Under the pieces are notes generated by a model. The model saw only the letters and a list, made by a program, of their open reading frames with translations, made no database searches and was not told the DNA's origin. Positions 6,349 through 62,985 of a stretch of 64,000 nt of DNA are shown here, in pieces. The number at the start of each line of letters is the position of its first letter. Within the stretch, counting starts at the first letter, position 1. The stretch is from the IMG/VR virus record IMGVR_UViG_3300033075_000957, positions 1 through 64,000 of that record; one strand, written 5' to 3'. The position numbers and the translations under genes are program-made. This DNA is from a virus. Its lineage: Duplodnaviria; Heunggongvirae; Uroviricota; Caudoviricetes.

Positions 6349-6882
6349 ATGACTAGGACTCAAAGAACTCAAAAAACCAGTCTCCGTCGTATTAATCTTC
6401 GTCAATCTCTTGCCCTTAAACGTGCTAAGGTTGGCATGCTCCTTGATGGTCTACAAGATGTTGGTAATATCGGAAGCATCATGCGTCTTACCAACGCTTT
6501 TGCAACCGAAGGTACGTATTATCTAGAACGTCAACAACTTTTTGGTATGCATAAATCTGCTGTAGGAACTCAGCATTTTGAAACTTTAGAGCGGATCGAT
6601 GCTAGTCAGTTAGAGACATTCTTATCCAAATTTGATAAGATTATCGCTATTGATAATAAAGTTGCCTTTAAAACTAAGCGTTTTGAAGAAATGGTATTCC
6701 ACCGTGATTCGTCATATCTTTTCATTCTAGGTAATGAATCGAATGGGATTTCGCTTCCTCTGCTTCGTCGGGCAGATACTATTTCTACGATTACACAATA
6801 TGGATGTGTCGGCTCGCTTAATGTGGCAGTAGCGGCAGCTATTGTTCTGTATGAATATCGAAAGCAGATTGGGTCGCCATAA
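6349..6882 (+). CDS. SpoU/TrmH-family (SPOUT) RNA 2'-O-methyltransferase
   Basis: Motifs LLDGLQDVGNIGSIMRLTNAF and FILGNESNGIS..SLNVAVAAAIVLYE match the SPOUT knot motifs. Confidence 0.7.
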   Translation: MTRTQRTQKTSLRRINLRQSLALKRAKVGMLLDGLQDVGNIGSIMRLTNAFATEGTYYLERQQLFGMHKSAVGTQHFETLERIDASQLETFLSKFDKIIAIDNKVAFKTKRFEEMVFHRDSSYLFILGNESNGISLPLLRRADTISTITQYGCVGSLNVAVAAAIVLYEYRKQIGSP

Positions 6883-7763
6883 TGCGAATTCGTCTAGACC
6901 GAAACGCTAATTATCGAGCAACGTTCTTGCCTAGCGGTAAAACGCTACGATTTAAGATTGATCCTTCCAAACCGTTCGCGGCTCCGGCAACACCGGAGAT
7001 TGAAGATGTTGCTATTAACGATAAGTGTCTAGCGAATTGCTCTTACTGCTATACTTCGGCCACTAAAGATGGCAAAAATTTCGATAACATTTGTAGAAAG
7101 GCCGAAGTAGTATGGGGTTCTTTATCTCCGCAGGAACGACCGTTTCAAATTGCTATCGGCGGTGCTGGCGAATCAACTCTGCATCCTAACTGGGTTGATT
7201 TCGTTCGTACCGTTAGGGATTTGGGGATACTTCCCAATTATACTACGAACGGAATGCATCTGTCTGATGACATTCTGTCGGCGACAGCCGAATATTGTGG
7301 TGGAGTTGCGTTATCGTGGCATCCTCATATTTCGCGAGTATTCACAGAAGCAGTCAAGAAATTGACATCAATCAAGAGTCGAGTCAACTTCCATATTATT
7401 GTCGGCACTCCCCAATCTCTTGAAGACGCGAAGCGTTTGTATGAACAATATAACGAAGTTGTAGAATACTTTGTGATACTTCCGTATCAAGCTGCTGGTC
7501 GTGGAACATCGATTGAAGTTGAAAGCACTTGGAAAGAATGCTTCGCTTGGATTTCAGGAGTAAACTCTCGAAAGTTTGCGTTTGGAGCGTTGTTTTATGA
7601 TTTTCTCAAGCGGTATCCAACGCAGTTGGATATGGATGTGTATGAGCCCGAAATCTTTTCAGGCTATCGTGTTCTGAACGAAACGTTTAGAACATTAAGA
7701 AAGTCATCTTATGACTTGCGACCTAAATCGCAACAACTTACTGTAAAAGGCTTAAATGTTTAA
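6882..7763 (+). CDS. radical SAM enzyme, family unresolved
   Basis: CLANCSYC (Cx3Cx2C) motif; CSYC resembles QueE/NrdG-type clusters; start overlaps the SpoU stop (ATGA). Confidence 0.6.
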   Translation: MRIRLDRNANYRATFLPSGKTLRFKIDPSKPFAAPATPEIEDVAINDKCLANCSYCYTSATKDGKNFDNICRKAEVVWGSLSPQERPFQIAIGGAGESTLHPNWVDFVRTVRDLGILPNYTTNGMHLSDDILSATAEYCGGVALSWHPHISRVFTEAVKKLTSIKSRVNFHIIVGTPQSLEDAKRLYEQYNEVVEYFVILPYQAAGRGTSIEVESTWKECFAWISGVNSRKFAFGALFYDFLKRYPTQLDMDVYEPEIFSGYRVLNETFRTLRKSSYDLRPKSQQLTVKGLNV

Positions 7764-10794: not shown

Positions 10795-11427
10795 ATGCGG
10801 ATTAAATCGAACTTCAGAGATTATTACGACGGGCTTCAATCTTTAGATACTGACAAAAATACATTGTGGATTCGTCAGCAAAAAAGAGTTGAGGTTATCT
10901 TAAATAAAAACACTCCGAAGAACATACGTTATTTCTTCGAAGATACTTTTAGGATGGCTAAATGTTATAGAAATGTCGATACTTATACATATTGGTTGAT
11001 AGTAGGTATCGCTGGAAAAATGTACCCAATATGGGTTAAAAATAAACGTTTTATATACGATCAAAGTAAGCAACCCACTGTTAGGGACTATTGTTTTTAT
11101 AATTATCATTATAAGCAAAATCCTTGGTATCAAATCTATATTAATGACGAAATGTTGTTACAACATATGTTTGATACATATGGCCCGGTATGGTCTATTG
11201 GAACAGGCGAGTTGGCAGAGTCGATTAATTTTGTGAACTGTAATCCGCGTTTAGCGGATTATGGTTTTCATAAGTTCATGCCGGTACACGAAATTTACAA
11301 CGAGTTATACAAATTTCTGTGCAATTCTCAAAGGCTGCTCCGTCCGATTCCGGAAATGGATAACGATACGAAAATTCATCAGGCAGGATTTGATCTGAAA
11401 ACTTCTTTTAGAAAGTCTAAAAAATGA
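10795..11427 (+). CDS. hypothetical protein
   Basis: ATG at 10795 (MRIKSNFRDYYDGL..) with GAGGAAG RBS. Confidence 0.45.
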   Translation: MRIKSNFRDYYDGLQSLDTDKNTLWIRQQKRVEVILNKNTPKNIRYFFEDTFRMAKCYRNVDTYTYWLIVGIAGKMYPIWVKNKRFIYDQSKQPTVRDYCFYNYHYKQNPWYQIYINDEMLLQHMFDTYGPVWSIGTGELAESINFVNCNPRLADYGFHKFMPVHEIYNELYKFLCNSQRLLRPIPEMDNDTKIHQAGFDLKTSFRKSKK

Positions 11428-12380
11428 CATGGGATAAAATTGAGGTTAAATGCGACCCGCAAGGGCTAGTGTCTAAGTATATTTTTACGAGCAAAGATGC
11501 CGTATCTGAATCTGTTCTGTACCGTTATCCCACGTACTTAGAGCGTACAGTTATCTGTTGCAGTACCCAAAGCGGATGTCCGGTTGGTTGCCGTTTCTGT
11601 GGAACAGGCGACTTCTTTGTTCGCAATCTTAACCACGACGAGATTGTTTCTCAGCCGGTGCGGTTGTTGCAGGATACCAACATTGATCCGGCCACTATTA
11701 AGCGTTTACAGATTATGTTTATGAGCATGGGCGAGCCTATGCTTAACTGGCGTAATCTTCGTGAAGCACTTCATACTTTGTATCGACTGTATCCATCTGC
11801 ACGCTTACTAATCAGTACGATTGGTCCACGCAGGGATAATGATTTCTTTGATCTTAATTGTCTGTCAATCGATATCCCAACAATCGGGCTTCAATTTTCT
11901 GTACACGAATCATCGAACGCGGCCCGCGATCGTTTGATTCCGTTCAAAGCCAAATATACTCTTGAAGAAATCGCAACAAAGGGTGCTGAATGGCATACCG
12001 CATGTGGACGTAAACCGTTTTTTAATTATTGTGTCCACGATAAGAATAATTTGATCGAAGATGCAGAGCGTTTACGTGATCTGTTTGACCCGCGTATCTG
12101 GAACGCTACCCTATCGGTTATATGTGAACGTACCGAACATGTAACTGCTTCCAATGATTATCAAAGGCAACTTGCAATTGATTTTGGTAACATGATCGGA
12201 GACATGGGATATGATTTTAGAGTTTTTGATCCTGCCGGTGCCGATACAATAGGATCGGGATGTGGCCAATTATGGTTTGTTCAAGATTGGGCTTCGAAGC
12301 ACTCAGATAAAGTTAAACGTAGTTGTGGCAATGGTTTGCCAAAAGTACATACGCCCACATTAAATCAAAAACCGATTTAA
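11424..12380 (+). CDS. RlmN/Cfr-family radical SAM RNA methyltransferase
   Basis: CCSTQSGCPVGCRFCGTGDF matches the RlmN SSQVGCxxxCxFCATG cluster; MSMGEPMLNW matches MGMGEPLLN; C-terminal GADTIGSGCGQLW matches the conserved ACGQL cysteine motif. Confidence 0.7.
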   Translation: MTWDKIEVKCDPQGLVSKYIFTSKDAVSESVLYRYPTYLERTVICCSTQSGCPVGCRFCGTGDFFVRNLNHDEIVSQPVRLLQDTNIDPATIKRLQIMFMSMGEPMLNWRNLREALHTLYRLYPSARLLISTIGPRRDNDFFDLNCLSIDIPTIGLQFSVHESSNAARDRLIPFKAKYTLEEIATKGAEWHTACGRKPFFNYCVHDKNNLIEDAERLRDLFDPRIWNATLSVICERTEHVTASNDYQRQLAIDFGNMIGDMGYDFRVFDPAGADTIGSGCGQLWFVQDWASKHSDKVKRSCGNGLPKVHTPTLNQKPI

Positions 12381-13455: not shown

Positions 13456-13975
13456 AGAAATTTCCAACGCTTTACATTTTGCAATCCAAGCACATAATGG
13501 ACAAAAACGTTCTCACGGAGGACCGTATGTCCTGCATGTTATTCGCGTAGCCGAACGCGTTTCAGCTAATCTTCAAATTGATATGCTGAATAATTGGCAC
13601 GTTGGTAATAACGGATGGTATACCGATACCATTTGTGCCGCTTTATTACATGACACGTTAGAAGATACCACTGTAACGAGCAATGATTTAAAATCACGTT
13701 TTGGAGAACGTGTAGCAACGATGGTAAAAAGTCTAACAACTGACGGTTTAAATAACGAAGAACTTTATTCAAAAGCAAAAACGTGGCATTATTATACTCG
13801 TATTATTAAATTAGCAGATATTTATGATAACGTAAAAGAAGGCCAGTTATCATGGAGTTCTGAAAGAATTAAACGTTATGCGGCCAATAAAGCCGATTTT
13901 ATTCGTAGTTGTTTTAATGTTGCTGATGTCGGTTATAATGAAACACTTCGATTATGTGAGGAATCTCAATTATGA
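13442..13975 (+). CDS. HD-domain phosphohydrolase (RelA/SpoT-type HD)
   Basis: HGGPYVLHVIRVAE .. AALLHDTLEDT is a His..HD motif. Confidence 0.6.
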   Translation: MIVNKEISNALHFAIQAHNGQKRSHGGPYVLHVIRVAERVSANLQIDMLNNWHVGNNGWYTDTICAALLHDTLEDTTVTSNDLKSRFGERVATMVKSLTTDGLNNEELYSKAKTWHYYTRIIKLADIYDNVKEGQLSWSSERIKRYAANKADFIRSCFNVADVGYNETLRLCEESQL

Positions 13976-15144
13976 GCAGTCTAATCGTTCAAATTCGTAC
14001 TATTACCAATATTCGTCCGCATAAAAATCCGGAAAAGACTCGAATAGAGATTGCGGAAATTGATGGATGGCAATCCATTATTCCCAAGGGACAATATGCC
14101 GTTGGCGATAATGTCGTATTTATTCCGCCCGATTCGGTAATGACCAAAGAAATCTCCGATAAGTTAGGAGTTACTAACTATTTAAAGAATGGTCGAGTAA
14201 CGTCAATCAAACTCGGCGGAGAAATGTCTTTTGGTATTATTGTAAAACCTGATCAGAATTGGCCGGTTGGCACCGACGTTGCTGAGCACTATCAGATTAC
14301 AAAATACGAGCCGCCAATAGTAACTCGTAATGGTAATTGTCCTCCCGGTACGGCTCCGCAAAATCCTCGATTCTTCCATAAATTTACAGATATTGAGAAT
14401 ATTCGACACTTTAAGACTGTTTTGGACGGTCACGAAGTAATATGTCTCGAAAAGATTCACGGAGCAAACTGGCGGGCATGTCTTGGATATAATGAGAACG
14501 GTACGAAAGAGTTCGTAGTGGGTTCACGCAATACCGTTCGTAAGGTACCTACTAAAAAGATTTCGGTCTTACCGTGTAATAAACTTCACGCATTATACTT
14601 AAAGTTACGTCGTTTTGTTGGTTTTGAGAAGATGGAAGAGGTGTTTGATATTAATGCGGCACGCAAGGATTGGTATCATCATGTTCTGTGTAATCAGGCA
14701 GAGTTTGGTAATGTCCAAAAAATGATCGAAGATATATCGCGTCATACTGGTGCTATGAATGTAGCGTTATATGGCGAAACGTTTGGCGATGGTATCCAAA
14801 ACATGACGTATGGAAAAACCAATGGCCAGATGGGTTTTGTCGCTTTTGCATTGGCAGTTGATTACAAATACGTTGATTATGATGTATTCATCAATTGGTG
14901 CGTAATGTACGATATACCTACTGCACCACTTGTGTACCGTGGACCGTATCTCTTCGATACTATACGATCATTATCGAGCGGTAAGTCGCTGATTAAAGAT
15001 GCGAATCATATTCGTGAAGGCGTAGTGGTTTTGCCCACAAAAGAAATGCATGGCCCATCTGGTAGAATTATTTTCAAATCAATTAACGATGATTATCTGC
15101 TAAGTAAGGAATCGGGTAAGATTAGTGATAGTACTGATTCGTAA
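13972..15144 (+). CDS. RNA ligase (Rnl2-like nucleotidyltransferase) with N-terminal tRNA-binding OB-fold (Trbp111/CsaA/Myf-like) domain
   Basis: N-terminus VQIRTITNIRPHKNPEKTRIEIAEIDG..YAVGDNVVFIPPDSVM matches the tRNA-binding-domain pattern (V..HP.ADKL..VDVG..IVSGA.N...GD.V.VA); EKIHGANW matches ligase motif I (KxHG, as in T4 Rnl2 KIHGTN). Confidence 0.6.
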   Translation: MSSLIVQIRTITNIRPHKNPEKTRIEIAEIDGWQSIIPKGQYAVGDNVVFIPPDSVMTKEISDKLGVTNYLKNGRVTSIKLGGEMSFGIIVKPDQNWPVGTDVAEHYQITKYEPPIVTRNGNCPPGTAPQNPRFFHKFTDIENIRHFKTVLDGHEVICLEKIHGANWRACLGYNENGTKEFVVGSRNTVRKVPTKKISVLPCNKLHALYLKLRRFVGFEKMEEVFDINAARKDWYHHVLCNQAEFGNVQKMIEDISRHTGAMNVALYGETFGDGIQNMTYGKTNGQMGFVAFALAVDYKYVDYDVFINWCVMYDIPTAPLVYRGPYLFDTIRSLSSGKSLIKDANHIREGVVVLPTKEMHGPSGRIIFKSINDDYLLSKESGKISDSTDS

Positions 15145-30752: not shown

Positions 30753-32363
30753 ATGGCAAATTACGGAAACAGTCTCAAAAATCGTAAACGCACTCCGATC
30801 ACCGAAGCGGTGCCCGGTACAGCAATGGTGCCAAATAATGGCGGTGGATATGGTTATGTCGTAGACGACTTCATTCGTTTACAACGATTTCTGATTCTCG
30901 GATCGGACGGCGGTACCTACTATGTCGGCGAACGGGAGTTAACGGTTCAGAATGCTGAATGCATTACTAGATGCCTAAATTCTGATTACAAGCGTGCTAT
31001 TGATATGATCGTTAATATTAGCGATCAAGGTCGTGCTCCAAAGAATAGTCCTGCGGTTTTTGCTTTGGCAATGGCCGCTGCTCACGAAGGCAGCAACGCT
31101 CGCGAATGCCGTAAATATGCACTCGCTAACTTAGCCAAGGTCTGTCGTATCGGTACACATCTCTTTGAGTTTACCGAATACGTTACTAAAATGCGTGGAT
31201 GGGGGCGTTTGCTTAGAGACGGAGTTGCTTCGTGGTATACAGATATGGACGAGGAACGCCTTGCCTATCAGGTAATTAAGTACCCACAACGTACTATTAC
31301 TGAAGGTAACGCTTCTTCCGCATGGTCGCATAAGGACATCTTACGGTTATCCCGCCCATCTGGTAATAAAAACCATCAAACTATCTACAATTACATCCAT
31401 TCCGGAGAATTTAAATCTAGAGCAGAATCGCTCGCGATTATTGCTGGAACTGAAAAGATTAAACTGGCAAAAAATATAGATGAATGTGTAAAACTTATTT
31501 CTAAATATAATCTTCCTCATGAAGTTGTACCTAAGCAGTTTGCGAATTCGAAAGAAGTTTGGGAAACTTTGCTACCTAATCTTCCTGCTACTGCCCTGAT
31601 TCGTTCTCTTGGCCGCATGCAATCCTATGGATTATTTGAAAACGGTTCTGAATCTCTTAGGATTGCTTTAGAGAAAATTAGCGATGTAAATTGGTTGAAA
31701 AAGAGCCGTATGCATCCCCTCAATATTCTTATTGCCCAGCGTACCTATACTACTGCACACGGAACAAAAGGAAATCTTACATGGACGCCAAATCCGCAAA
31801 TTACGGAAGCTCTTGAAAAGGCATTCTATAATGCGTTTGACTATGTAGAGCCTTCTGGCAAAAACTTACTAATTGCTGTAGATATTTCTGGTAGTATGAT
31901 ATCTCGTTTTGGTACTTTTAATATTAGTTCCTGCGAAGTTGCGGCTGTTTTAGCTATGGTTGCTGCCCGAAGAGAACCTAGCTCATATATTGTCGGATTC
32001 GCTTCTCAGATTGTTGATCTAAAAATTACTAAAAATGATACTCTCGAATCTGCGTGCAAGAAATGCCAAGGAAACTGGGGTTCAACAAATTGTGCTGCTG
32101 CGATAGATCACGCAATCCAGCATCGTTTAAACGTGGATGCTTTTCTAATCATCACCGACAATGAGTCTAATACCGGTGTGCATCCTGCACAAGCTATTAA
32201 ACAATATAGAAATCAGGTTAACAAACCGAATGCTAAACTGATAAGTTTAGCGACTACAAGTACTCGTACTACAATTAATGATCCTAACGATTTCGATTGC
32301 CTCGATCTTGTCGGATTCGATACTGCGGTACCAGAACTTATCACGAATTTCATTCGCGAATAA
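30753..32363 (+). CDS. rsr: Ro60 ortholog (TROVE domain plus vWA domain; bacterial Rsr-like)
   Basis: 536 aa; N-terminal TROVE-like region (FIRLQRFLILGSDGGTYY); C-terminal vWA domain with MIDAS motif LLIAVDISGSM and ITDNESNTG; the size and architecture match bacterial Rsr. Confidence 0.7.
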   Translation: MANYGNSLKNRKRTPITEAVPGTAMVPNNGGGYGYVVDDFIRLQRFLILGSDGGTYYVGERELTVQNAECITRCLNSDYKRAIDMIVNISDQGRAPKNSPAVFALAMAAAHEGSNARECRKYALANLAKVCRIGTHLFEFTEYVTKMRGWGRLLRDGVASWYTDMDEERLAYQVIKYPQRTITEGNASSAWSHKDILRLSRPSGNKNHQTIYNYIHSGEFKSRAESLAIIAGTEKIKLAKNIDECVKLISKYNLPHEVVPKQFANSKEVWETLLPNLPATALIRSLGRMQSYGLFENGSESLRIALEKISDVNWLKKSRMHPLNILIAQRTYTTAHGTKGNLTWTPNPQITEALEKAFYNAFDYVEPSGKNLLIAVDISGSMISRFGTFNISSCEVAAVLAMVAARREPSSYIVGFASQIVDLKITKNDTLESACKKCQGNWGSTNCAAAIDHAIQHRLNVDAFLIITDNESNTGVHPAQAIKQYRNQVNKPNAKLISLATTSTRTTINDPNDFDCLDLVGFDTAVPELITNFIRE

Positions 32364-32472
32364 TGATATGAGTGCGATTCCGTAACTGAAAAAAAGGATT
32401 TCCTCACGGAGTGCCGAGAAATCGGCAGACACTTTCGGACGGGCCGTGAGATAGGAAAAACATGCACTTATT

Positions 32473-32544
32473 AGGATACTAGTTCACCGGAAGAACGCTC
32501 GCTTGATAAGCGAGAAGTACTTGGTTCAACTCCAAGGTATCCTA
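32473..32544 (+). tRNA. tRNA-Ile (anticodon GAT)
   Basis: Acceptor AGGATAC/GTATCCT, D-arm GTTC-ACCGGAA-GAAC, anticodon stem CTCGC/GCGAG with loop TTGATAA, T-arm CTTGG-TTCAACT-CCAAG; 72 nt. Confidence 0.7.
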
Positions 32545-32548
32545 TGAA

Positions 32549-32634
32549 TACTAGGTGGCCGAGGTTGGTCGATGGCACAAAACTGTTAATTTTGCGGCGA
32601 AAGCCCGTCGTAGGTTCAAATCCTACCCTAGTAG
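32549..32634 (+). tRNA. type-II (long variable arm) tRNA, identity uncertain; the 7-nt loop CTGTTAA reads as anticodon GTT
   Basis: Acceptor TACTAGG/CCTAGTA perfect, D-stem GCC/GGC with 13-nt loop, anticodon stem CAAAA/TTTTG, variable arm CGGCGAAAGCCCGTC, T-arm GTAGG-TTCAAAT-CCTAC; 86 nt. Confidence 0.5.
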
Positions 32635-48076: not shown

Positions 48077-48223
48077 GCTATTGACTGCAATAGCAGTTTA
48101 TCAGTGTGTGGGGTAGCAGCCGCCCGCTTGCTTTGGGAGCAAGTATACGCAAGTGCAATTCTTGCCACATTGACTTTGGGCCAGTAACTCAATATGTAGA
48201 GTGCCGATTTTGCAAATCGGAGG

Positions 48224-48833
48224 TTGCGAAGTCGCATTCGCCTGTGTCCATTGATGATCGGTATTAGAATTAAAGAAAACGATTTGTTTGTTGTTGAACA
48301 CGGCGTTAAAAGACGTGCTGAAAAAGTTTTGTGCAAAGTATGTAATAAAAAATTTATTCGCCGGATTGGAAGGAAAACTAGTAGATGTTCTCGATCTTGT
48401 TTTTATAAAACGACACGTCATAAAAAGACTGTTCTTGAATGTTTCAATTGCCATCAAAAATTTGAAAGATTGCCAAATAAACTAAAGGGTGCTAGGCACG
48501 GTATTTATTTTTGTTCAAGAAAATGCAAAGACTTTGCTCAGAGTTTGCGAGGAAATTGTCCAAAAATTAGACCATCGCATTATGGCACTACAGACGAATA
48601 TTTAGTTAAAGATTTTTATAAAGAGCATTTTCATAAAGGATGTTTGTGCGGAGAAAAAGAATTATCTTTTACAAATCCATCATGTAGACGGAAATCATTC
48701 CAACAATCAATCAGAAAATTTAGAAATCGTCTGTGCTAACTGCCATATTAAACGACATCTGGTGTATAAAAACGGAACTTGGACATATTGTATGTCAAAA
48801 TTAACTCCTAGGGATCAGTTAGATAAAGTTTAA
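48224..48833 (+). pseudogene. HNH homing endonuclease interrupted by a frame change near the A-run 48651-48661
   Basis: CxxC Zn modules in the frame of ORF 48224..48739; the HNH core (LQIHHVDGNHSNNQSENLEIVCANCH) continues in the +1 frame 48606..48833; junction is CLCGEKE | KNYLLQIHH. Confidence 0.5.
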
Positions 48834-59566: not shown

Positions 59567-59983
59567 ATGGTTAAAATAATGAAAATTCTTTTTTTAGATG
59601 ACGAAAAATATCGGCATAATGAGTTTGCTCAAAATGCTATTGGAGCTACGGTTACACATGTCTATTCAGCCGACGAAGCGATACGCGAATTACAGACCAA
59701 TGAGTACAGTTTAGTCTTTCTCGATCATGATTTGGAACCAGCACATTATCGCGAACGCAAACCAGAAGATAAAGATGGTCAATATATAGCCGATAAAATC
59801 GTTGAACTTGATATTGAGTTGCCCTTTATCGTTATTCATTCGCTTAACCCATTAGGGGCTGCCAAAATGTTGGAGAAACTCGGTACTCTATATCGTAGCC
59901 GAGCTATATACGTCCCAATGGGATGGAAATTCTTTGCGGTTACTCAGAACGGGTGGTCTTTTAACTATAATTTTCCTGATTAA
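59567..59983 (+). CDS. stand-alone response-regulator receiver (REC/CheY-like) domain protein
   Basis: KILFLDDE .. SADEAIREL .. YSLVFLDHDL .. matches the receiver-domain pattern (D-D pocket, conserved Asp in LVFLDHDL, Ser/Thr and Lys positions plausible). Confidence 0.5.
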   Translation: MVKIMKILFLDDEKYRHNEFAQNAIGATVTHVYSADEAIRELQTNEYSLVFLDHDLEPAHYRERKPEDKDGQYIADKIVELDIELPFIVIHSLNPLGAAKMLEKLGTLYRSRAIYVPMGWKFFAVTQNGWSFNYNFPD

Positions 59984-60051: not shown

Positions 60052-62985
60052 ATGACTACATTTATCGACCATAACGAAATTTTAAGTCCAGAGTTTTTGC
60101 AGAAATATGTTGGCAAGCACCCAAAATGGGGTTTTAACGGATTAGGATATATAGTATATAAAAGAACTTATGCCAGATGGATTCCAGAACTTAAGCGGAC
60201 TGAAGAATGGTGGGAAACCGTCGCTAGATGCATTCGCGGTGCTCAAAAAATTGGGGCAGGATATACGGTACAGGAAGCAGAGCGTTTATACGATCATGTT
60301 TTTAATCTGCGTTGTAATTTTGCCGGGCGTATGTTATGGCAATTGGGAACAGAAACTGTTGATAAGATAGGACTTCCGAGTCTTTGCAATTGCTGGAATG
60401 TTAACATCAATTCTTTAGAATCATTTTGTTTTATCTTCGAGCATCTTATGCTCGGTGGCGGGGTGGGCTTCAGTGTAAAAAAGGAACATGTCCACGAATT
60501 ACCAAAGGTTAAAGACGGCGTAGTCATCAAACATCTGGCCACTAAAGACGCTGATTTTATAGTCCCTGATTCCCGTGAAGGATGGGTAGAATTACTACGC
60601 AAAATACTTAATGCTTATTTTGTAACCGGAAAAGGCTTTACTTACTCTACGATTTTAATTCGTGGAGCCGGAGAAAAGATTAATGGATTCGGCGGTACGG
60701 CCAGTGGTCCACAAATTTTAATTGATGGACTAAATAATATTTTTGGCGTGATCTCAAAGCGTGTTGGTAAGAAATTAAGAAGTATTGACGCATTAGATAT
60801 CGCTAATATTCTAGGCAGTATCGTAGTTGCCGGAAACGTTAGAAGAAGTGCTCAGTTAGCTCTTGGCGATGCGGATGATAAATTATTTCTTAATGCTAAA
60901 CGCTGGGACTTAGGTAATATTCCTAACTGGCGTGCTATGTCAAATAATACTGTAAGTGCAGATGATTTCACTTATCTTAGCAATGATTTTTGGCGTGGAT
61001 ATGAGGGCGACGGAGAGCCTTATGGTTTAGCAAATATTGATTTATGTCGAAAGTTTGGCCGTTTAATCGACGGGCCTATGTCTAAATGTTCTTTGTATCC
61101 ACAAAGAGAAGATAAGGTAGAAGGTTTAAATCCTTGCCAACCAAAATGGGCGTTTGTTTTAACTAAAAACGGTATTAGACAATTTGGCAAGCTACAGATT
61201 GGAGACGAAATTTGGTCTTCAGAAGGTTGGACGAAAGTTGTAAAGAAATGGTCCACCGGTATTAAAAATGTGTATAAATACACAACTACAGCAGGTATTT
61301 TTTATGGAACAGAAAACCATAGAGTACTTAGTGACAACAAAAAAATCGAAGTACAAGAAGCGGAATCTATCGACATTCTTCGAGGAGGATTATCAACAGA
61401 AGACGATCTGCTACCACAAGACATCATGGATGGACTAGTTATTGGCGATGGTATGGTGCATAAAGCATCCAATAATTTAGTTCTTTTATGTATTGGACAA
61501 GATGATCAGGATTATTTTCAGAGCGAAATTACACCGCTGATACTTATCGATCGCTTTGGTATAAGCGACAATGCTTATGAAATACAAACCACAATTAAAT
61601 CAGAAGAACTTGCTAGAACTTTTGATCGAACAATCCCTGATCGTTTTGTAACTGGATCGGCGAAAACAATTCAAGGATTTTTAAGAGGGCTATATTCTGC
61701 CAACGGTTCGGTTTGCGGCAATCGTATTACATTAAAAGCAACTTCGCTTGCCCTGATCGAACAGGTACAAGTGATGCTTAGTGCTATTGGAATCAAATCT
61801 TATTATACCACAAACAAATCGTCATTGGTAACATTTGAAAACGGCGAATATCTTTGTAAACAAAGTTATGATTTAAACATTACTATTGATCGCCATCAGT
61901 TTGTTAAAAAAATTGGATTTATTCAATCTTATAAGAACGATAAAATTCGGAGTTCCAATCCAGTTCAAAATGAAAAAGTATCCTACGATATTAAATCTGT
62001 TGAACTGGTATCTCGCGAAGAAGTTTTTGATATTACTGTTGACAATCTTTCGCACACCTATTGGACTCATGGATGTAACGTGTCTAATTGTGCCGAAGCC
62101 ACGCTTGAACACGGTGAACCGTGTGATCTAGCTGAACAATATCTTCACAATCTTTCTTCACAGGAAGAATTTAATGATTGTGCAATGTTGCTATATAAAA
62201 CGCAAAAAGCTATCTTACGTTTAGATTCTATCTCCGATTGGACTAACGCAGTAGTGAAGCGAAACATGCGTGTTGGTCTTGGCGTAACTGGTGTTTGTGA
62301 AGATATCAAAAAGATTGTATGGTTAGATGATGGATATCGCTCACTTCGAGCGATAGATAAAGAGTGGTCTAAGAAACGTGGCTGGCCTGAAAGTATAAAG
62401 CTAACGGTTGTCAAGCCGTCAGGCACGTTAAGTTTGCTCGCCGGATGCACTCCCGGATGCCATCCCGCTTACGATAAATACTATATCCGTAGAGTACGGA
62501 TGGCCTCTTCTGATTCATTAGTTAATACTTGTCGTAATTTAGGTTGTAAAATTGAATATCAGATCGGTTTTGATGGAAAAGAACAGCACGACACTGTGGT
62601 TGTAGAATTTCCTTGCAAAGCCTCAGATAACGCAATTATTGCCAAAGATATGACTGCGGTAGAACAATTAGAAATTATGAAGACTTTACAGTCAGTTTGG
62701 GCCGATCAGGCTGTATCGGTAACAGTTTATTATCGTAAAGAAGAATTGCCAGCAATTAAATTATGGCTTGAAGAAAACTATGAAACATCGGTTAAAAGTG
62801 TAAGTTTCTTACTTCATAACGACCACGGATTCCGGCAGGCCCCGTATGAATCTATTACTAAAGAAAAATATGAAGAACTTATTAAGAATATGAAACCTTT
62901 AAATTCGTTGATAACTAATAATGATATTGGTGGCGAATTAGTAGAGGGTGTAGAATGCGTTAATGGAGCATGTCCCATTAGATAA
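60052..62985 (+). CDS. ribonucleotide reductase catalytic subunit (class II-like) carrying an intein
   Basis: 977 aa; MLGGGVGFS glycine-rich motif; active-site NPC|AE split by the intein (GLNP-[intein]-CAEATLE); C-terminal CVNGAC redox pair. Confidence 0.65.
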   Translation: MTTFIDHNEILSPEFLQKYVGKHPKWGFNGLGYIVYKRTYARWIPELKRTEEWWETVARCIRGAQKIGAGYTVQEAERLYDHVFNLRCNFAGRMLWQLGTETVDKIGLPSLCNCWNVNINSLESFCFIFEHLMLGGGVGFSVKKEHVHELPKVKDGVVIKHLATKDADFIVPDSREGWVELLRKILNAYFVTGKGFTYSTILIRGAGEKINGFGGTASGPQILIDGLNNIFGVISKRVGKKLRSIDALDIANILGSIVVAGNVRRSAQLALGDADDKLFLNAKRWDLGNIPNWRAMSNNTVSADDFTYLSNDFWRGYEGDGEPYGLANIDLCRKFGRLIDGPMSKCSLYPQREDKVEGLNPCQPKWAFVLTKNGIRQFGKLQIGDEIWSSEGWTKVVKKWSTGIKNVYKYTTTAGIFYGTENHRVLSDNKKIEVQEAESIDILRGGLSTEDDLLPQDIMDGLVIGDGMVHKASNNLVLLCIGQDDQDYFQSEITPLILIDRFGISDNAYEIQTTIKSEELARTFDRTIPDRFVTGSAKTIQGFLRGLYSANGSVCGNRITLKATSLALIEQVQVMLSAIGIKSYYTTNKSSLVTFENGEYLCKQSYDLNITIDRHQFVKKIGFIQSYKNDKIRSSNPVQNEKVSYDIKSVELVSREEVFDITVDNLSHTYWTHGCNVSNCAEATLEHGEPCDLAEQYLHNLSSQEEFNDCAMLLYKTQKAILRLDSISDWTNAVVKRNMRVGLGVTGVCEDIKKIVWLDDGYRSLRAIDKEWSKKRGWPESIKLTVVKPSGTLSLLAGCTPGCHPAYDKYYIRRVRMASSDSLVNTCRNLGCKIEYQIGFDGKEQHDTVVVEFPCKASDNAIIAKDMTAVEQLEIMKTLQSVWADQAVSVTVYYRKEELPAIKLWLEENYETSVKSVSFLLHNDHGFRQAPYESITKEKYEELIKNMKPLNSLITNNDIGGELVEGVECVNGACPIR
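61135..62088 (+). mobile_element. intein (318 aa) with LAGLIDADG homing-endonuclease domain, inserted before the catalytic Cys of the RNR NPCxE motif
   Basis: Begins CQPKWAFVLTKNG (block A), TENHRVL (block B), LAGLIDADG motifs GLVIGDGMVH and GFLRGLYSANGSV, ends ..CNVSN followed by the extein Cys. Confidence 0.55.

What the first reader, a model, noticed from the sequence alone, without database searches (positions are those of the whole stretch)
61135..62088. LAGLIDADG intein inserted exactly before the catalytic Cys of the RNR NPCxE active-site motif
The RNR ORF reads ..VEGLNP | CQPKWAFVLTKNG ... THGCNVSN | CAEATLEHGEPC... Removing 318 aa restores NPCAE. The insert has intein blocks A and B and two LAGLIDADG motifs. 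The penultimate residue is Ser rather than the usual His. Splicing would be required for any RNR activity.
Basis: partly seen in the sequence, partly recalled or inferred. Interest (0 to 1): 0.6.

Follow-up and report, generated by a model that had tools for sequence, protein, structure and literature searches.

The report
Self-splicing intein in phage ribonucleotide reductase
A 318-residue self-splicing protein insert (an intein carrying a homing-endonuclease domain) interrupts a phage vitamin-B12-dependent ribonucleotide reductase just before its radical-bearing cysteine; it is real, but this is the most common place for inteins in this enzyme, so the find is ordinary.

Summary
ORF 60052..62985 (977 aa) carries a 318-aa in-frame insert at 61135..62088, from Cys1 to Asn318 and followed by Cys+1. 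Removing it restores VEGLNP-CAEATLEHGEPC. The resulting 659-aa protein matches Lactobacillus leichmannii RTPR end to end (E=3.5e-95) and then passes the NCBIfam RTPR cut-off.

About 25 of the 120 closest homologs lack the insert and have an unbroken NPCxE. 88 carry an intein at this same point, from at least four lineages.

The insert's predicted structure (pLDDT 96) matches PI-SceI, PI-PfuI and TliVMA inteins, and also I-DmoI.

The splicing residues C1, T59, H62, D299 and N318 are invariant in 69 allelic relatives, and H307 is kept in 68. The penultimate Ser is a lineage trait (65 of 69), not decay.

The intein is about as conserved as the exteins, and synonymous sites are saturated.

The site is already described as the most frequent intein insertion point in RNRs. 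Annotated phage examples exist in Nodularia phages and Thermus phage G20c.

Verdict: a correct call and a new member of a known kind.

One small oddity: the second LAGLIDADG metal-binding residue is Asn across most of this viral lineage, while cellular relatives have Asp.

The parts
60052..62985 (+). Precursor ORF (977 aa plus stop): class II ribonucleoside-triphosphate reductase (RTPR/NrdJm type) interrupted by one intein
   Evidence: ORF list. Pfam RNR_Alpha, RNR-II_ins_dom, Ribonuc_red_lgC and LAGLIDADG_3. TIGR02505 RTPR scores 339.5 bits. PHROG 367 ribonucleotide reductase E=5.9e-125.
60052..61134 (+). N-extein, aa 1-361, ending ...VEGLNP. Contains the Cys (LCNCW, nt 60382-60396) that aligns to C119 of 1L1L
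   Evidence: Alignment to 1L1L; coordinates.
61135..62088 (+). Intein, 318 aa, Cys1 to Asn318 (class 1 architecture: HINT splicing domain with an inserted LAGLIDADG endonuclease domain)
61135..61173 (+). Intein block A (CQPKWAFVLTKNG). Cys1 is the step-1 nucleophile
   Evidence: C1 is invariant 69/69; Q2, P3, A6, T10 and G13 are at least 90% conserved in allelic inteins.
61294..61332 (+). Intein block B (GIFYGTENHRVLS) with the T59-x-x-H62 motif
   Evidence: T59 and H62 are invariant 69/69.
61414..61986 (+). LAGLIDADG homing-endonuclease domain (intein aa ~94-284). It is absent from natural mini-intein alleles of 131-139 aa
   Evidence: Pfam LAGLIDADG_3 E=2e-13. I-DmoI and PI-PfuI sequence and fold matches. 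Mini-inteins P0052, P0058 and P0068.
61426..61452 (+). LAGLIDADG motif 1 (MDGLVIGDG). D105 is the metal-binding Asp
   Evidence: Aligns to I-DmoI LGLIIGDG, whose Asp I know as D21. D105 is conserved in 64 of 66.
61678..61707 (+). LAGLIDADG motif 2 (FLRGLYSANG). N190 occupies the position of the second metal-binding Asp/Glu
   Evidence: N190 aligns to the Glu of I-DmoI KGLYVAEG, residue 117 by the chain numbering (the catalytic E117; entry 5a0w is titled I-DmoI E117A), and to the Glu of PI-PfuI AGLFDAEG. It is Asn in 57 and Asp in 10 of the lineage. Cellular relatives have Asp.
62020..62064 (+). Intein block F (EVFDITVDNLSHTYW) with D299 and H307
   Evidence: D299 is conserved 69/69 and H307 68/69.
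62065..62088 (+). Intein block G (THGCNVSN): penultimate Ser317 and terminal Asn318
   Evidence: N318 is conserved 69/69. Position 317 is Ser in 65, His in 3 and Ala in 1.
62089..62091 (+). Cys+1: the step-2 splicing nucleophile, and after splicing the Cys that aligns to the thiyl-radical Cys408 of L. leichmannii RTPR
   Evidence: Alignment to 1L1L numbering. The role of C408 is from my own knowledge of the RTPR literature.
62089..62982 (+). C-extein, aa 680-977, starting CAEATLEHGEPC (E aligns to E410 and the EPC Cys to C419) and ending CVNGACPIR (C-terminal Cys pair)
   Evidence: Alignment to 1L1L; coordinates.

Best explanation
This is a class 1 intein of 318 aa. It has a HINT splicing domain with a LAGLIDADG homing-endonuclease domain nested inside it. 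It is inserted in a large phage's adenosylcobalamin-dependent, monomeric ribonucleoside-triphosphate reductase (RTPR/NrdJm type), between Pro and the Cys of the NPCxE finger-loop motif.

Inferred mechanism, following the standard intein pathway:
1. Cys1 attacks the Pro(-1)-Cys1 peptide bond (N-S acyl shift), helped by block B T59/H62 and block F D299.
2. Cys+1, which is the future thiyl-radical cysteine, takes over the N-extein by trans-thioesterification.
3. Asn318 cyclises and releases the intein. Because the penultimate residue is Ser rather than His, this step is probably assisted by the conserved block F His307.
4. An S-N shift makes a normal Pro-Cys peptide bond. The products are a 659-aa active reductase and the free intein.

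Until this happens the active-site loop is split, so the enzyme cannot work.

At the DNA level the endonuclease domain targets intein-less alleles (core ...AATCCT|TGTGCCGAAGCC...) during co-infection and copies the intein in by repair (homing).

Shown here: the anatomy, the fold, the empty and occupied alleles, and conservation under purifying selection. Inferred: actual splicing, its rate, and actual DNA cleavage.
For: Host identity:
- The spliced 659-aa sequence matches 1L1L RTPR over its full length (E=3.5e-95). C119, N406, C408, E410, C419 and the C-terminal CxxxxC are all aligned.
- It passes the TIGR02505 cut-off only after excision: 357.5 against 339.5 bits, cut-off 340.05.

Insert is optional:
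- About 25 of the 120 best homologs are 643-669 aa with an unbroken NPCxE. Their best local alignments to the query reach 77% identity over one extein half.
- Empty-site DNA in two such phage contigs matches the window's spliced junction.

Same-site inteins:
- 88 homologs are interrupted exactly at NP|C...N|C.E, by at least four lineages.
- The same site is occupied in Nodularia phage 'intein-containing RnR' and in Thermus phage G20c.
- It is also occupied in RNR genes of assemblies labelled Thermococcus, Haloarcula and Chloroflexota.

Splice residues: C1, T59, H62, D299 and N318 are invariant in 69/69, and H307 in 68/69.

Fold: the AF2 model has pLDDT 96.1 and pTM 0.93. Foldseek top hits are TliVMA, PI-SceI and PI-PfuI inteins (E 2.5e-13 to 1e-9), followed by I-DmoI and the gp41-1 mini-intein.

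Selection:
- Against the 82%-identical ortholog, pN is 0.10-0.15 and pS 0.71-0.90 in exteins, HINT and endonuclease alike.
- Mean intein identity is 56% against 57% for the extein flanks, and the two are only weakly correlated (r=0.35). That fits horizontal movement.

Literature:
- Phage class 1 inteins often replace the penultimate His by Gly, Lys or Ser and still splice, with a block F His able to take over (PMC5050341; PMC4031507).
Against: - No experiment: splicing and DNA cleavage are inferred only.
- The penultimate His is missing (Ser317). The -1 residue is Pro, which from my memory of the Mth RIR1 intein work impairs splicing in heterologous hosts. Splicing could therefore be slow or condition-dependent.
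- No Pfam Hint or Intein_splicing model hits the insert at E<=1. Only LAGLIDADG_3 and a weak Hom_end hit were found. No PHROG family hits it either.
- The second LAGLIDADG metal-binding position is Asn rather than Asp/Glu. Known meganucleases use D or E at both positions (PMC6294521), so a full double-strand-cutting endonuclease is doubtful.
- Synonymous sites are saturated, so dN/dS cannot be given as a number.
Confidence: 0.88

Rival explanations
1. The intein splices, but its LAGLIDADG domain is not a conventional double-strand homing endonuclease. With Asn in place of the second metal-binding carboxylate it would be a strand-specific nickase, or a DNA-binding but catalytically inert domain kept for other reasons such as fold stability of the intein.
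For: N190 aligns to the catalytic Glu of I-DmoI (E117) and to the Glu of PI-PfuI. Known meganucleases use D or E at both metal-binding positions (PMC6294521). Asn is held in 57 of 67 lineage members and in the related Nodularia phage intein (LSGCYSANG), whereas 69 of 82 motif hits in the genome-collection loci, all of them in the more distant relatives, have FLRGLF[ST]ADG. The domain is under purifying selection.
Against: The lineage is widespread in very divergent RNR alleles, and intein and extein divergence are only weakly coupled (r=0.35). That suggests ongoing or recent mobility, which needs some DNA-breaking activity. Nicking could suffice, since nick-initiated homing is known for phage HNH enzymes (my knowledge). 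No biochemical data either way.
Confidence: 0.3
2. Splicing is deliberately slow or conditional (on redox state, temperature or cofactor), so the intein acts as a post-translational switch on dNTP supply during infection rather than as a purely selfish passenger.
For: The nucleophile Cys+1 is the redox-sensitive catalytic Cys. Pro(-1) and a non-His penultimate residue are both positions known to tune splicing rates, and a regulatory reading has been proposed for mycobacteriophage inteins (PMC5050341). An intein in Aquifex R2 improves iron loading of the mature enzyme (PMC8772380).
Against: Nothing in the sequence demonstrates it. Many close phage relatives do without the intein, so it is dispensable. 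In the mycobacteriophage case the non-His residue made splicing faster, not slower.
Confidence: 0.1
3. The intein has decayed and no longer splices, so the RNR gene is a pseudogene in this phage.
For: Non-canonical penultimate Ser and Asn in LAGLIDADG-2. Pfam Hint models fail to detect the insert.
Against: The 977-aa frame is open. All essential splice residues are intact and invariant across 69 relatives, and Ser317 itself is conserved 65/69. Both exteins and intein show pN far below pS against the ortholog. The RTPR catalytic residues are all retained.
Confidence: 0.04
4. The insert is an ordinary RNR domain, or a nucleic-acid-level element (a group I intron with a free-standing endonuclease gene), rather than an intein.
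For: None beyond the presence of a LAGLIDADG domain, which also occurs in intron-encoded enzymes.
Against: Intein-free homologs have an unbroken NPCxE. The insert is in frame with no stop or start signals of its own, and it is bounded by Cys1 and Asn-Cys. It has the HINT fold. Rfam gathering-threshold scan of the window finds only tRNAs and no intron.
Confidence: 0.01

Closest known systems
Contiguous inteins at the RNR thiyl-radical-Cys insertion point (InBase 'RIR1' inteins; examples seen here: Nodularia phage vB_NspS-kac65v162 gp173 'intein-containing RnR', Thermus phage G20c gp13, RNR inteins in assemblies labelled Thermococcus and Haloarcula)
   Same: Identical insertion point NP|C...[N/Q/D]|C.E. 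Same host enzyme family. LAGLIDADG endonuclease domain with the shared FLRGL[YF][ST]A[ND]G and GI[RK]SY.T.N signatures. The site is described as the most frequent one for RNR inteins (PMC2677866).
   Different: Only 24-32% identical to the cellular ones and 27% to the Nodularia phage intein. N-terminus is CQPxWA rather than C[VLF]TGDT. Penultimate residue is Ser rather than His. Asn rather than Asp in LAGLIDADG-2.
PI-PfuI (Pyrococcus furiosus RNR intein, PDB 1DQ3), PI-SceI and TliVMA inteins
   Same: Two-domain architecture: HINT horseshoe plus LAGLIDADG endonuclease. Foldseek E values run from 2.5e-13 to 2.9e-11. The profile matches 1DQ3 over both LAGLIDADG helices.
   Different: 10-15% sequence identity. 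This intein is smaller (318 aa against 360-454), without the extra DNA-recognition or stirrup regions that the larger size implies. PI-PfuI has Glu where this intein has Asn190.
I-DmoI (monomeric archaeal LAGLIDADG homing endonuclease)
   Same: Best sequence match for the endonuclease domain. Both LAGLIDADG helices align, 22-23% identity in the fold alignment.
   Different: I-DmoI is intron-encoded and free-standing. Its second catalytic residue is Glu117, and here it is Asn.
Mycobacteriophage class 1 inteins lacking the penultimate His (Kelley et al. 2016, PMC5050341)
   Same: Phage-borne class 1 inteins in which block G His is replaced (Gly, Lys, Ser) and splicing is retained or even faster. 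A block F His is proposed to compensate. This intein has Ser317 and a conserved H307.
   Different: Different host proteins and no detectable close sequence relationship. Splicing was not tested here.
Lactobacillus leichmannii RTPR (PDB 1L1L), the reference monomeric class II RNR
   Same: The spliced extein aligns end to end (E=3.5e-95) with all catalytic cysteines and the NPCxE loop. It passes the TIGR02505 equivalog cut-off.
   Different: L. leichmannii RTPR has no intein. The phage protein is 659 aa against 739 aa.

Membership tests
Intein (class 1) | In-frame insertion in a conserved host protein that is absent from homologs and whose removal restores the host motif | tested here: met
   About 25 homologs have an unbroken NPCxE, and excision restores NPCAE. 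The spliced protein aligns gap-free to 1L1L at the junction.
Intein (class 1) | N-terminal nucleophile Cys/Ser at position 1 (block A) | tested here: met
   Cys1, invariant 69/69.
Intein (class 1) | Block B Thr-x-x-His | tested here: met
   T59-E-N-H62. T59 and H62 are invariant 69/69.
Intein (class 1) | C-terminal Asn (or Gln/Asp) followed by Cys/Ser/Thr at +1 | tested here: met
   Asn318 then Cys+1; N318 is conserved 69/69.
Intein (class 1) | Penultimate His (block G:6). Typical but not obligatory. | tested here: not met
   Ser317. In the lineage this position is Ser 65, His 3, Ala 1. Inteins that splice without this His are documented (PMC4031507; PMC5050341), so it is not a disqualifying feature.
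Intein (class 1) | Block F Asp and His | tested here: met
   D299 is conserved 69/69 and H307 68/69.
Intein (class 1) | HINT fold | tested here: met
   AF2 pLDDT 96.1. Foldseek matches to the TliVMA, PI-SceI, PI-PfuI and gp41-1 inteins. Note that Pfam Hint/Intein_splicing HMMs do not hit.
Intein (class 1) | Autocatalytic protein splicing | not testable with these tools
   Requires expression and detection of the ligated 659-aa product.
LAGLIDADG homing endonuclease (monomeric, two-motif) | Two LAGLIDADG helices in a pseudo-symmetric alpha-beta-beta-alpha-beta-beta-alpha fold | tested here: met
   Motifs at intein aa 98-106 and 182-191. Pfam LAGLIDADG_3 E=2e-13. I-DmoI fold hits at E~1e-5.
LAGLIDADG homing endonuclease (monomeric, two-motif) | An acidic metal-binding residue (Asp/Glu) at the end of each motif | tested here: not met
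   Motif 1 has D105, but motif 2 has N190, aligned to the catalytic Glu of I-DmoI (E117) and to the Glu of PI-PfuI. The D-or-E rule is stated in PMC6294521.
LAGLIDADG homing endonuclease (monomeric, two-motif) | Site-specific cleavage of the intein-less allele | not testable with these tools
   Candidate target defined from empty alleles. Needs a cleavage assay.
Class II monomeric RNR (RTPR, TIGR02505) | Score above the curated equivalog cut-off | tested here: met
   357.5 bits against a cut-off of 340.05 after excision. With the intein in place the score is 339.5, just below.
Class II monomeric RNR (RTPR, TIGR02505) | Catalytic residues: thiyl-radical Cys in NPCxE, the redox Cys pair, and the C-terminal Cys pair | tested here: met
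   All are aligned to C408, N406, E410, C119, C419 and the C-terminal CxxxxC of 1L1L. The residue roles are from my knowledge of the RTPR literature.

The most novel reading that the evidence does not exclude
The mostly viral 'CQPxWA...NVSN' intein lineage has replaced the second LAGLIDADG metal-binding carboxylate by Asn and kept it under purifying selection across dozens of diverged phages, while its cellular relatives at the same RNR site keep Asp. If the enzyme is still mobile, it could be a natural strand-specific nicking LAGLIDADG enzyme that drives intein homing from a nick. The conserved penultimate Ser would be a second lineage-specific tuning, this one of splicing.
Probability: 0.2. 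Interest if true: 0.45.

Novelty: new member of a known kind. Interest (0 to 1): 0.18.

Why it matters
For annotation, the gene should be called an intein-containing RTPR rather than a 'LAGLIDADG endonuclease' or an odd long RNR. With the intein in place it falls just under the NCBIfam cut-off (339.5 against 340.05 bits), and one homolog in NCBI is indeed named only as a homing endonuclease (P0015).

Biologically it adds another example of inteins lodging at the one residue an essential enzyme cannot lose, which is already textbook.

The only points of wider interest are lineage traits. The penultimate Ser is conserved. An Asn sits in one of the two endonuclease active sites. The HINT domain is not recognised by Pfam's intein models. 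Together these could make this abundant metagenomic lineage a source of a compact intein (318 aa, with 131-aa natural mini versions) for protein engineering, or of a natural nicking meganuclease. Both would need bench work.

Tried and rejected
1. 'Normal RNR domain': rejected, because intein-free homologs have an unbroken NPCxE.
2. Intron or free-standing endonuclease gene: rejected, because the frame is continuous, the boundaries are Cys1 and Asn-Cys, and Rfam finds no intron.
3. Decay or pseudogene: rejected on conservation and on pN far below pS.
4. Pfam and PHROGs intein models gave nothing for the HINT part. The fold prediction was needed instead.
5. A numeric dN/dS could not be obtained because synonymous sites are saturated against the closest ortholog, which is 82% identical at the protein level.
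6. A single-sequence scan of 185,579 species genomes found no relative. The alignment-based scan then found 322. The lineage-1-like ones lie on MAG contigs assigned to a motley set of phyla, and I read these as probably phage contigs, which I did not verify.
7. I looked for a paper stating the Pro(-1) effect in the Mth RIR1 intein and did not find it in the library. That point rests on memory only.
8. I checked for a Y-RNA next to the Ro60 gene. No Rfam hit.
Full report
**Observation**

The window has one long ORF at 60052..62985 on the + strand, 977 aa. The peptide CQPKW... starts at residue 362 (nt 61135). ...NVSN ends at residue 679 (nt 62088), and the next codon is Cys.

Cutting out the 318 residues joins ...VEGLNP to CAEATLEHGEPC.... 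The 659-aa product matches the solved Lactobacillus leichmannii ribonucleoside-triphosphate reductase (1L1L) from end to end at E=3.5e-95. The junction aligns without a gap to VEGTNPCGEISLANGEPCNL, which by the chain numbering in the alignment is N406-P407-C408-G409-E410...C419. The N-extein LCNCW Cys aligns to C119, and the C-terminal CVNGACPIR to CEGGACPIK.

From my knowledge of the RTPR literature, C408 carries the thiyl radical, C119 and C419 are the reducing pair, and the C-terminal pair re-reduces them. The insert therefore sits immediately before the radical cysteine.

The NCBIfam RTPR equivalog model scores 339.5 bits with the insert, just under its 340.05 cut-off. After excision it scores 357.5 bits.

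**Is the insert optional?**

Of the 120 best database homologs, about 25 are 643-669 aa long and have an unbroken NPCxE. The closest of them (P0034, P0040, P0042) are 77% identical over their best local alignment to the query, which covers one extein half.

Two of these lie on phage-like contigs with a similar gene neighbourhood (dCMP deaminase, NAMPT, RecA). At the DNA level their uninterrupted site (...AATCCT|TGTGCCGAAGCC...) matches the window's spliced junction.

**Is it an intein?**

Eighty-eight of the homologs are interrupted at exactly the same point, NP|C...N|C.E. They fall into at least four unrelated-looking lineages:
- The window's lineage, CQPxWA...YWTGGxNVSN: 69 sequences, including three natural mini-inteins of 131-139 aa that lack the endonuclease.
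- A canonical C[VLI]TxDTW...[SA]HN lineage of about 355-360 aa.
- A lineage ending in Gly-Gln.
- A lineage starting with Ser and ending in Gly-Asn.

Within the window's lineage C1, T59, H62 (block B TxxH), D299 (block F) and N318 are invariant in 69 of 69. H307 (block F) is kept in 68 of 69.

AlphaFold2 with a 58-sequence alignment gives a very confident model (pLDDT 96.1, pTM 0.93). Its best matches among solved structures are endonuclease-containing inteins: TliVMA 7qsu at E=2.5e-13, PI-SceI, and PI-PfuI 1dq3. The free-standing LAGLIDADG enzyme I-DmoI and the gp41-1 mini-intein follow.

Pfam recognises only the endonuclease part (LAGLIDADG_3, E=2e-13). None of its Hint or intein-splicing models hit the insert, and no PHROG family does either. 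On sequence models alone this lineage's splicing domain is easy to miss.

**The penultimate Ser**

Ser317 is not a lesion. It is Ser in 65 of 69 lineage members, His in 3 and Ala in 1.

Inteins that splice without the penultimate His are documented (references in PMC4031507). Phage class 1 inteins in particular often have Gly, Lys or Ser there. In those cases a block F His is proposed to take over, and in one tested case splicing was faster than with His (PMC5050341). The conserved H307 is the obvious candidate here.

The -1 residue is necessarily Pro at this site. From memory, the Methanothermobacter RIR1 mini-intein needed a Pro(-1) substitution to work well in E. coli. I could not find that statement in the library, so it remains a recollection.

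**Selection and mobility**

Against the closest ortholog (P0002, 82% identical, contig L004 with the same cREC_REC neighbour), non-synonymous differences per site are 0.10-0.15 and synonymous differences 0.71-0.90. This holds in the N-extein, HINT-N, endonuclease, HINT-C and C-extein alike. Synonymous sites are saturated, so no numeric ratio is given, but the whole intein, endonuclease included, is under purifying selection.

Across 57 lineage members the intein is on average as similar to the window's intein (56%) as the flanking 200+200 extein residues are to the window's exteins (57%). The two are only weakly correlated (r=0.35). For example, P0037 has exteins 48% identical and an intein 62% identical, while P0003 has 74% and 58%. 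That pattern fits an element that moves between diverged alleles.

**The endonuclease oddity**

Motif 1 (MDGLVIGDG) has the expected Asp105. Motif 2 reads FLRGLYSANG, and Asn190 aligns to the catalytic Glu of I-DmoI (E117) and to the Glu of PI-PfuI. Known meganucleases have Asp or Glu at both metal-binding positions (PMC6294521).

Asn is found in 57 and Asp in 10 of the lineage members. It also occurs in the distantly related Nodularia phage intein (LSGCYSANG).

An alignment-based scan of species-representative genomes recovered 322 relatives:
- The close ones (42-59% identical) lie on MAG contigs attributed to a motley set of phyla. They are probably phage contigs, which I did not verify. They have Asn.
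- The distant ones (24-32%) include many that sit at the same NP|C site in RNR genes of assemblies labelled Thermococcus, Haloarcula, Thermoplasmata and Chloroflexota, among others. They have FLRGLF[ST]ADG.
- Overall the motif hits split 13 Asn to 69 Asp.

So the Asp-to-Asn change looks like a derived, maintained trait of the mostly viral clade. Whether the enzyme is a nickase, a weak cutter or inert cannot be decided here.

**Comparison with what is known**

Dassa et al. [quoted passage not shown]

In deposited phage genomes the same site is occupied in two cases:
- Nodularia phages, annotated 'intein-containing RnR': SNP|CFTGDMRLL...RIAHN|CGEILL.
- Thermus phage G20c: LNP|CLTGDTLV...FQSGN|CAEILL. 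Its 'likely intein' is mentioned in PMC6459318.

The closest deposited phage intein is the Nodularia one, at 27% identity. The window's lineage is known only from metagenomes, where it is common.

**Context**

The window belongs to a large phage. The identical protein occurs in the database on a contig of 156 kb; the one contig I retrieved that carries it is 55.8 kb. The window has 11 tRNA genes and many auxiliary genes: Ro60/TROVE, NAMPT, ThyX, a RuvB-like ATPase, RNA ligase, two radical-SAM proteins, dCMP deaminase and a cREC_REC protein next to the RNR.

**Verdict**

The feature is a new member of a well-known kind, at the best-known RNR intein site. Interest is low. A modest residual curiosity attaches to the lineage-wide Ser317 and Asn190.

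Noticed in passing
window 30753-32634: A Ro60/TROVE plus vWA protein gene (30753-32363, Pfam E=1.7e-45 and 5.6e-35) is followed within about 110 nt by tRNA-Ile(gat) at 32472-32545 and an unusually long (86 nt) 'tRNA-Asn(gtt)' at 32549-32634. Bacterial Ro60 partners with Y-RNA-like RNAs that contain a tRNA-like module (my knowledge), so the adjacent tRNA-like genes may be its RNA partner. No Rfam Y RNA hit at E<=1.
   Followed up: partly
window 61678-61707 (intein aa 182-191) and loci L014-L093: The second LAGLIDADG motif has Asn at the metal-binding position (SANG) in the window and in 57 of 67 allelic inteins, and also in the Nodularia phage RNR intein. Relatives at the same site in RNR genes of cellular genome assemblies have ADG (13 Asn against 69 Asp in the genome scan).
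   Followed up: partly
homologs P0004, P0016, P0025, P0038, P0050, P0071, P0083, P0096: The same RTPR family carries inteins at three further points in other metagenomic phages: after YKR (|C...HN|T, extein position 38), at SL[CL]|NC (position 112, next to the Cys that aligns to C119), and after VRR (|C...HN|S, position 265). There are up to three inteins in one 1548-aa protein.
   Followed up: no
window 59567-59983 and L004 3695-4114: A small cREC_REC (PF20274, cyclic-phosphate-processing receiver) protein lies directly upstream of the RNR gene, both in the window and in the 82%-identical ortholog contig. dCMP deaminase is also nearby in both.
   Followed up: no
window 4883-51108: ARAGORN finds eleven tRNA genes, including tRNA-Ile(tat) and several over-long ones (Glu 84 nt, Val 85 nt). 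Rfam at gathering threshold confirms eight of them and adds one at 48178-48250 that ARAGORN did not list.
   Followed up: no
window 6882-7763 and 11424-12380: Two separate radical-SAM-like ORFs (Pfam E~1e-5, just below the gathering score) in the tRNA-rich part of the phage genome. An RNA ligase is at 13972-15144.
   Followed up: no
P0015 (NCBI record): A 969-aa homolog of the whole intein-containing RNR is named in NCBI only as 'LAGLIDADG family homing endonuclease [Nanoarchaeota archaeon]'. This looks like a naming error caused by the intein, and probably a phage contig binned into a MAG.
   Followed up: no
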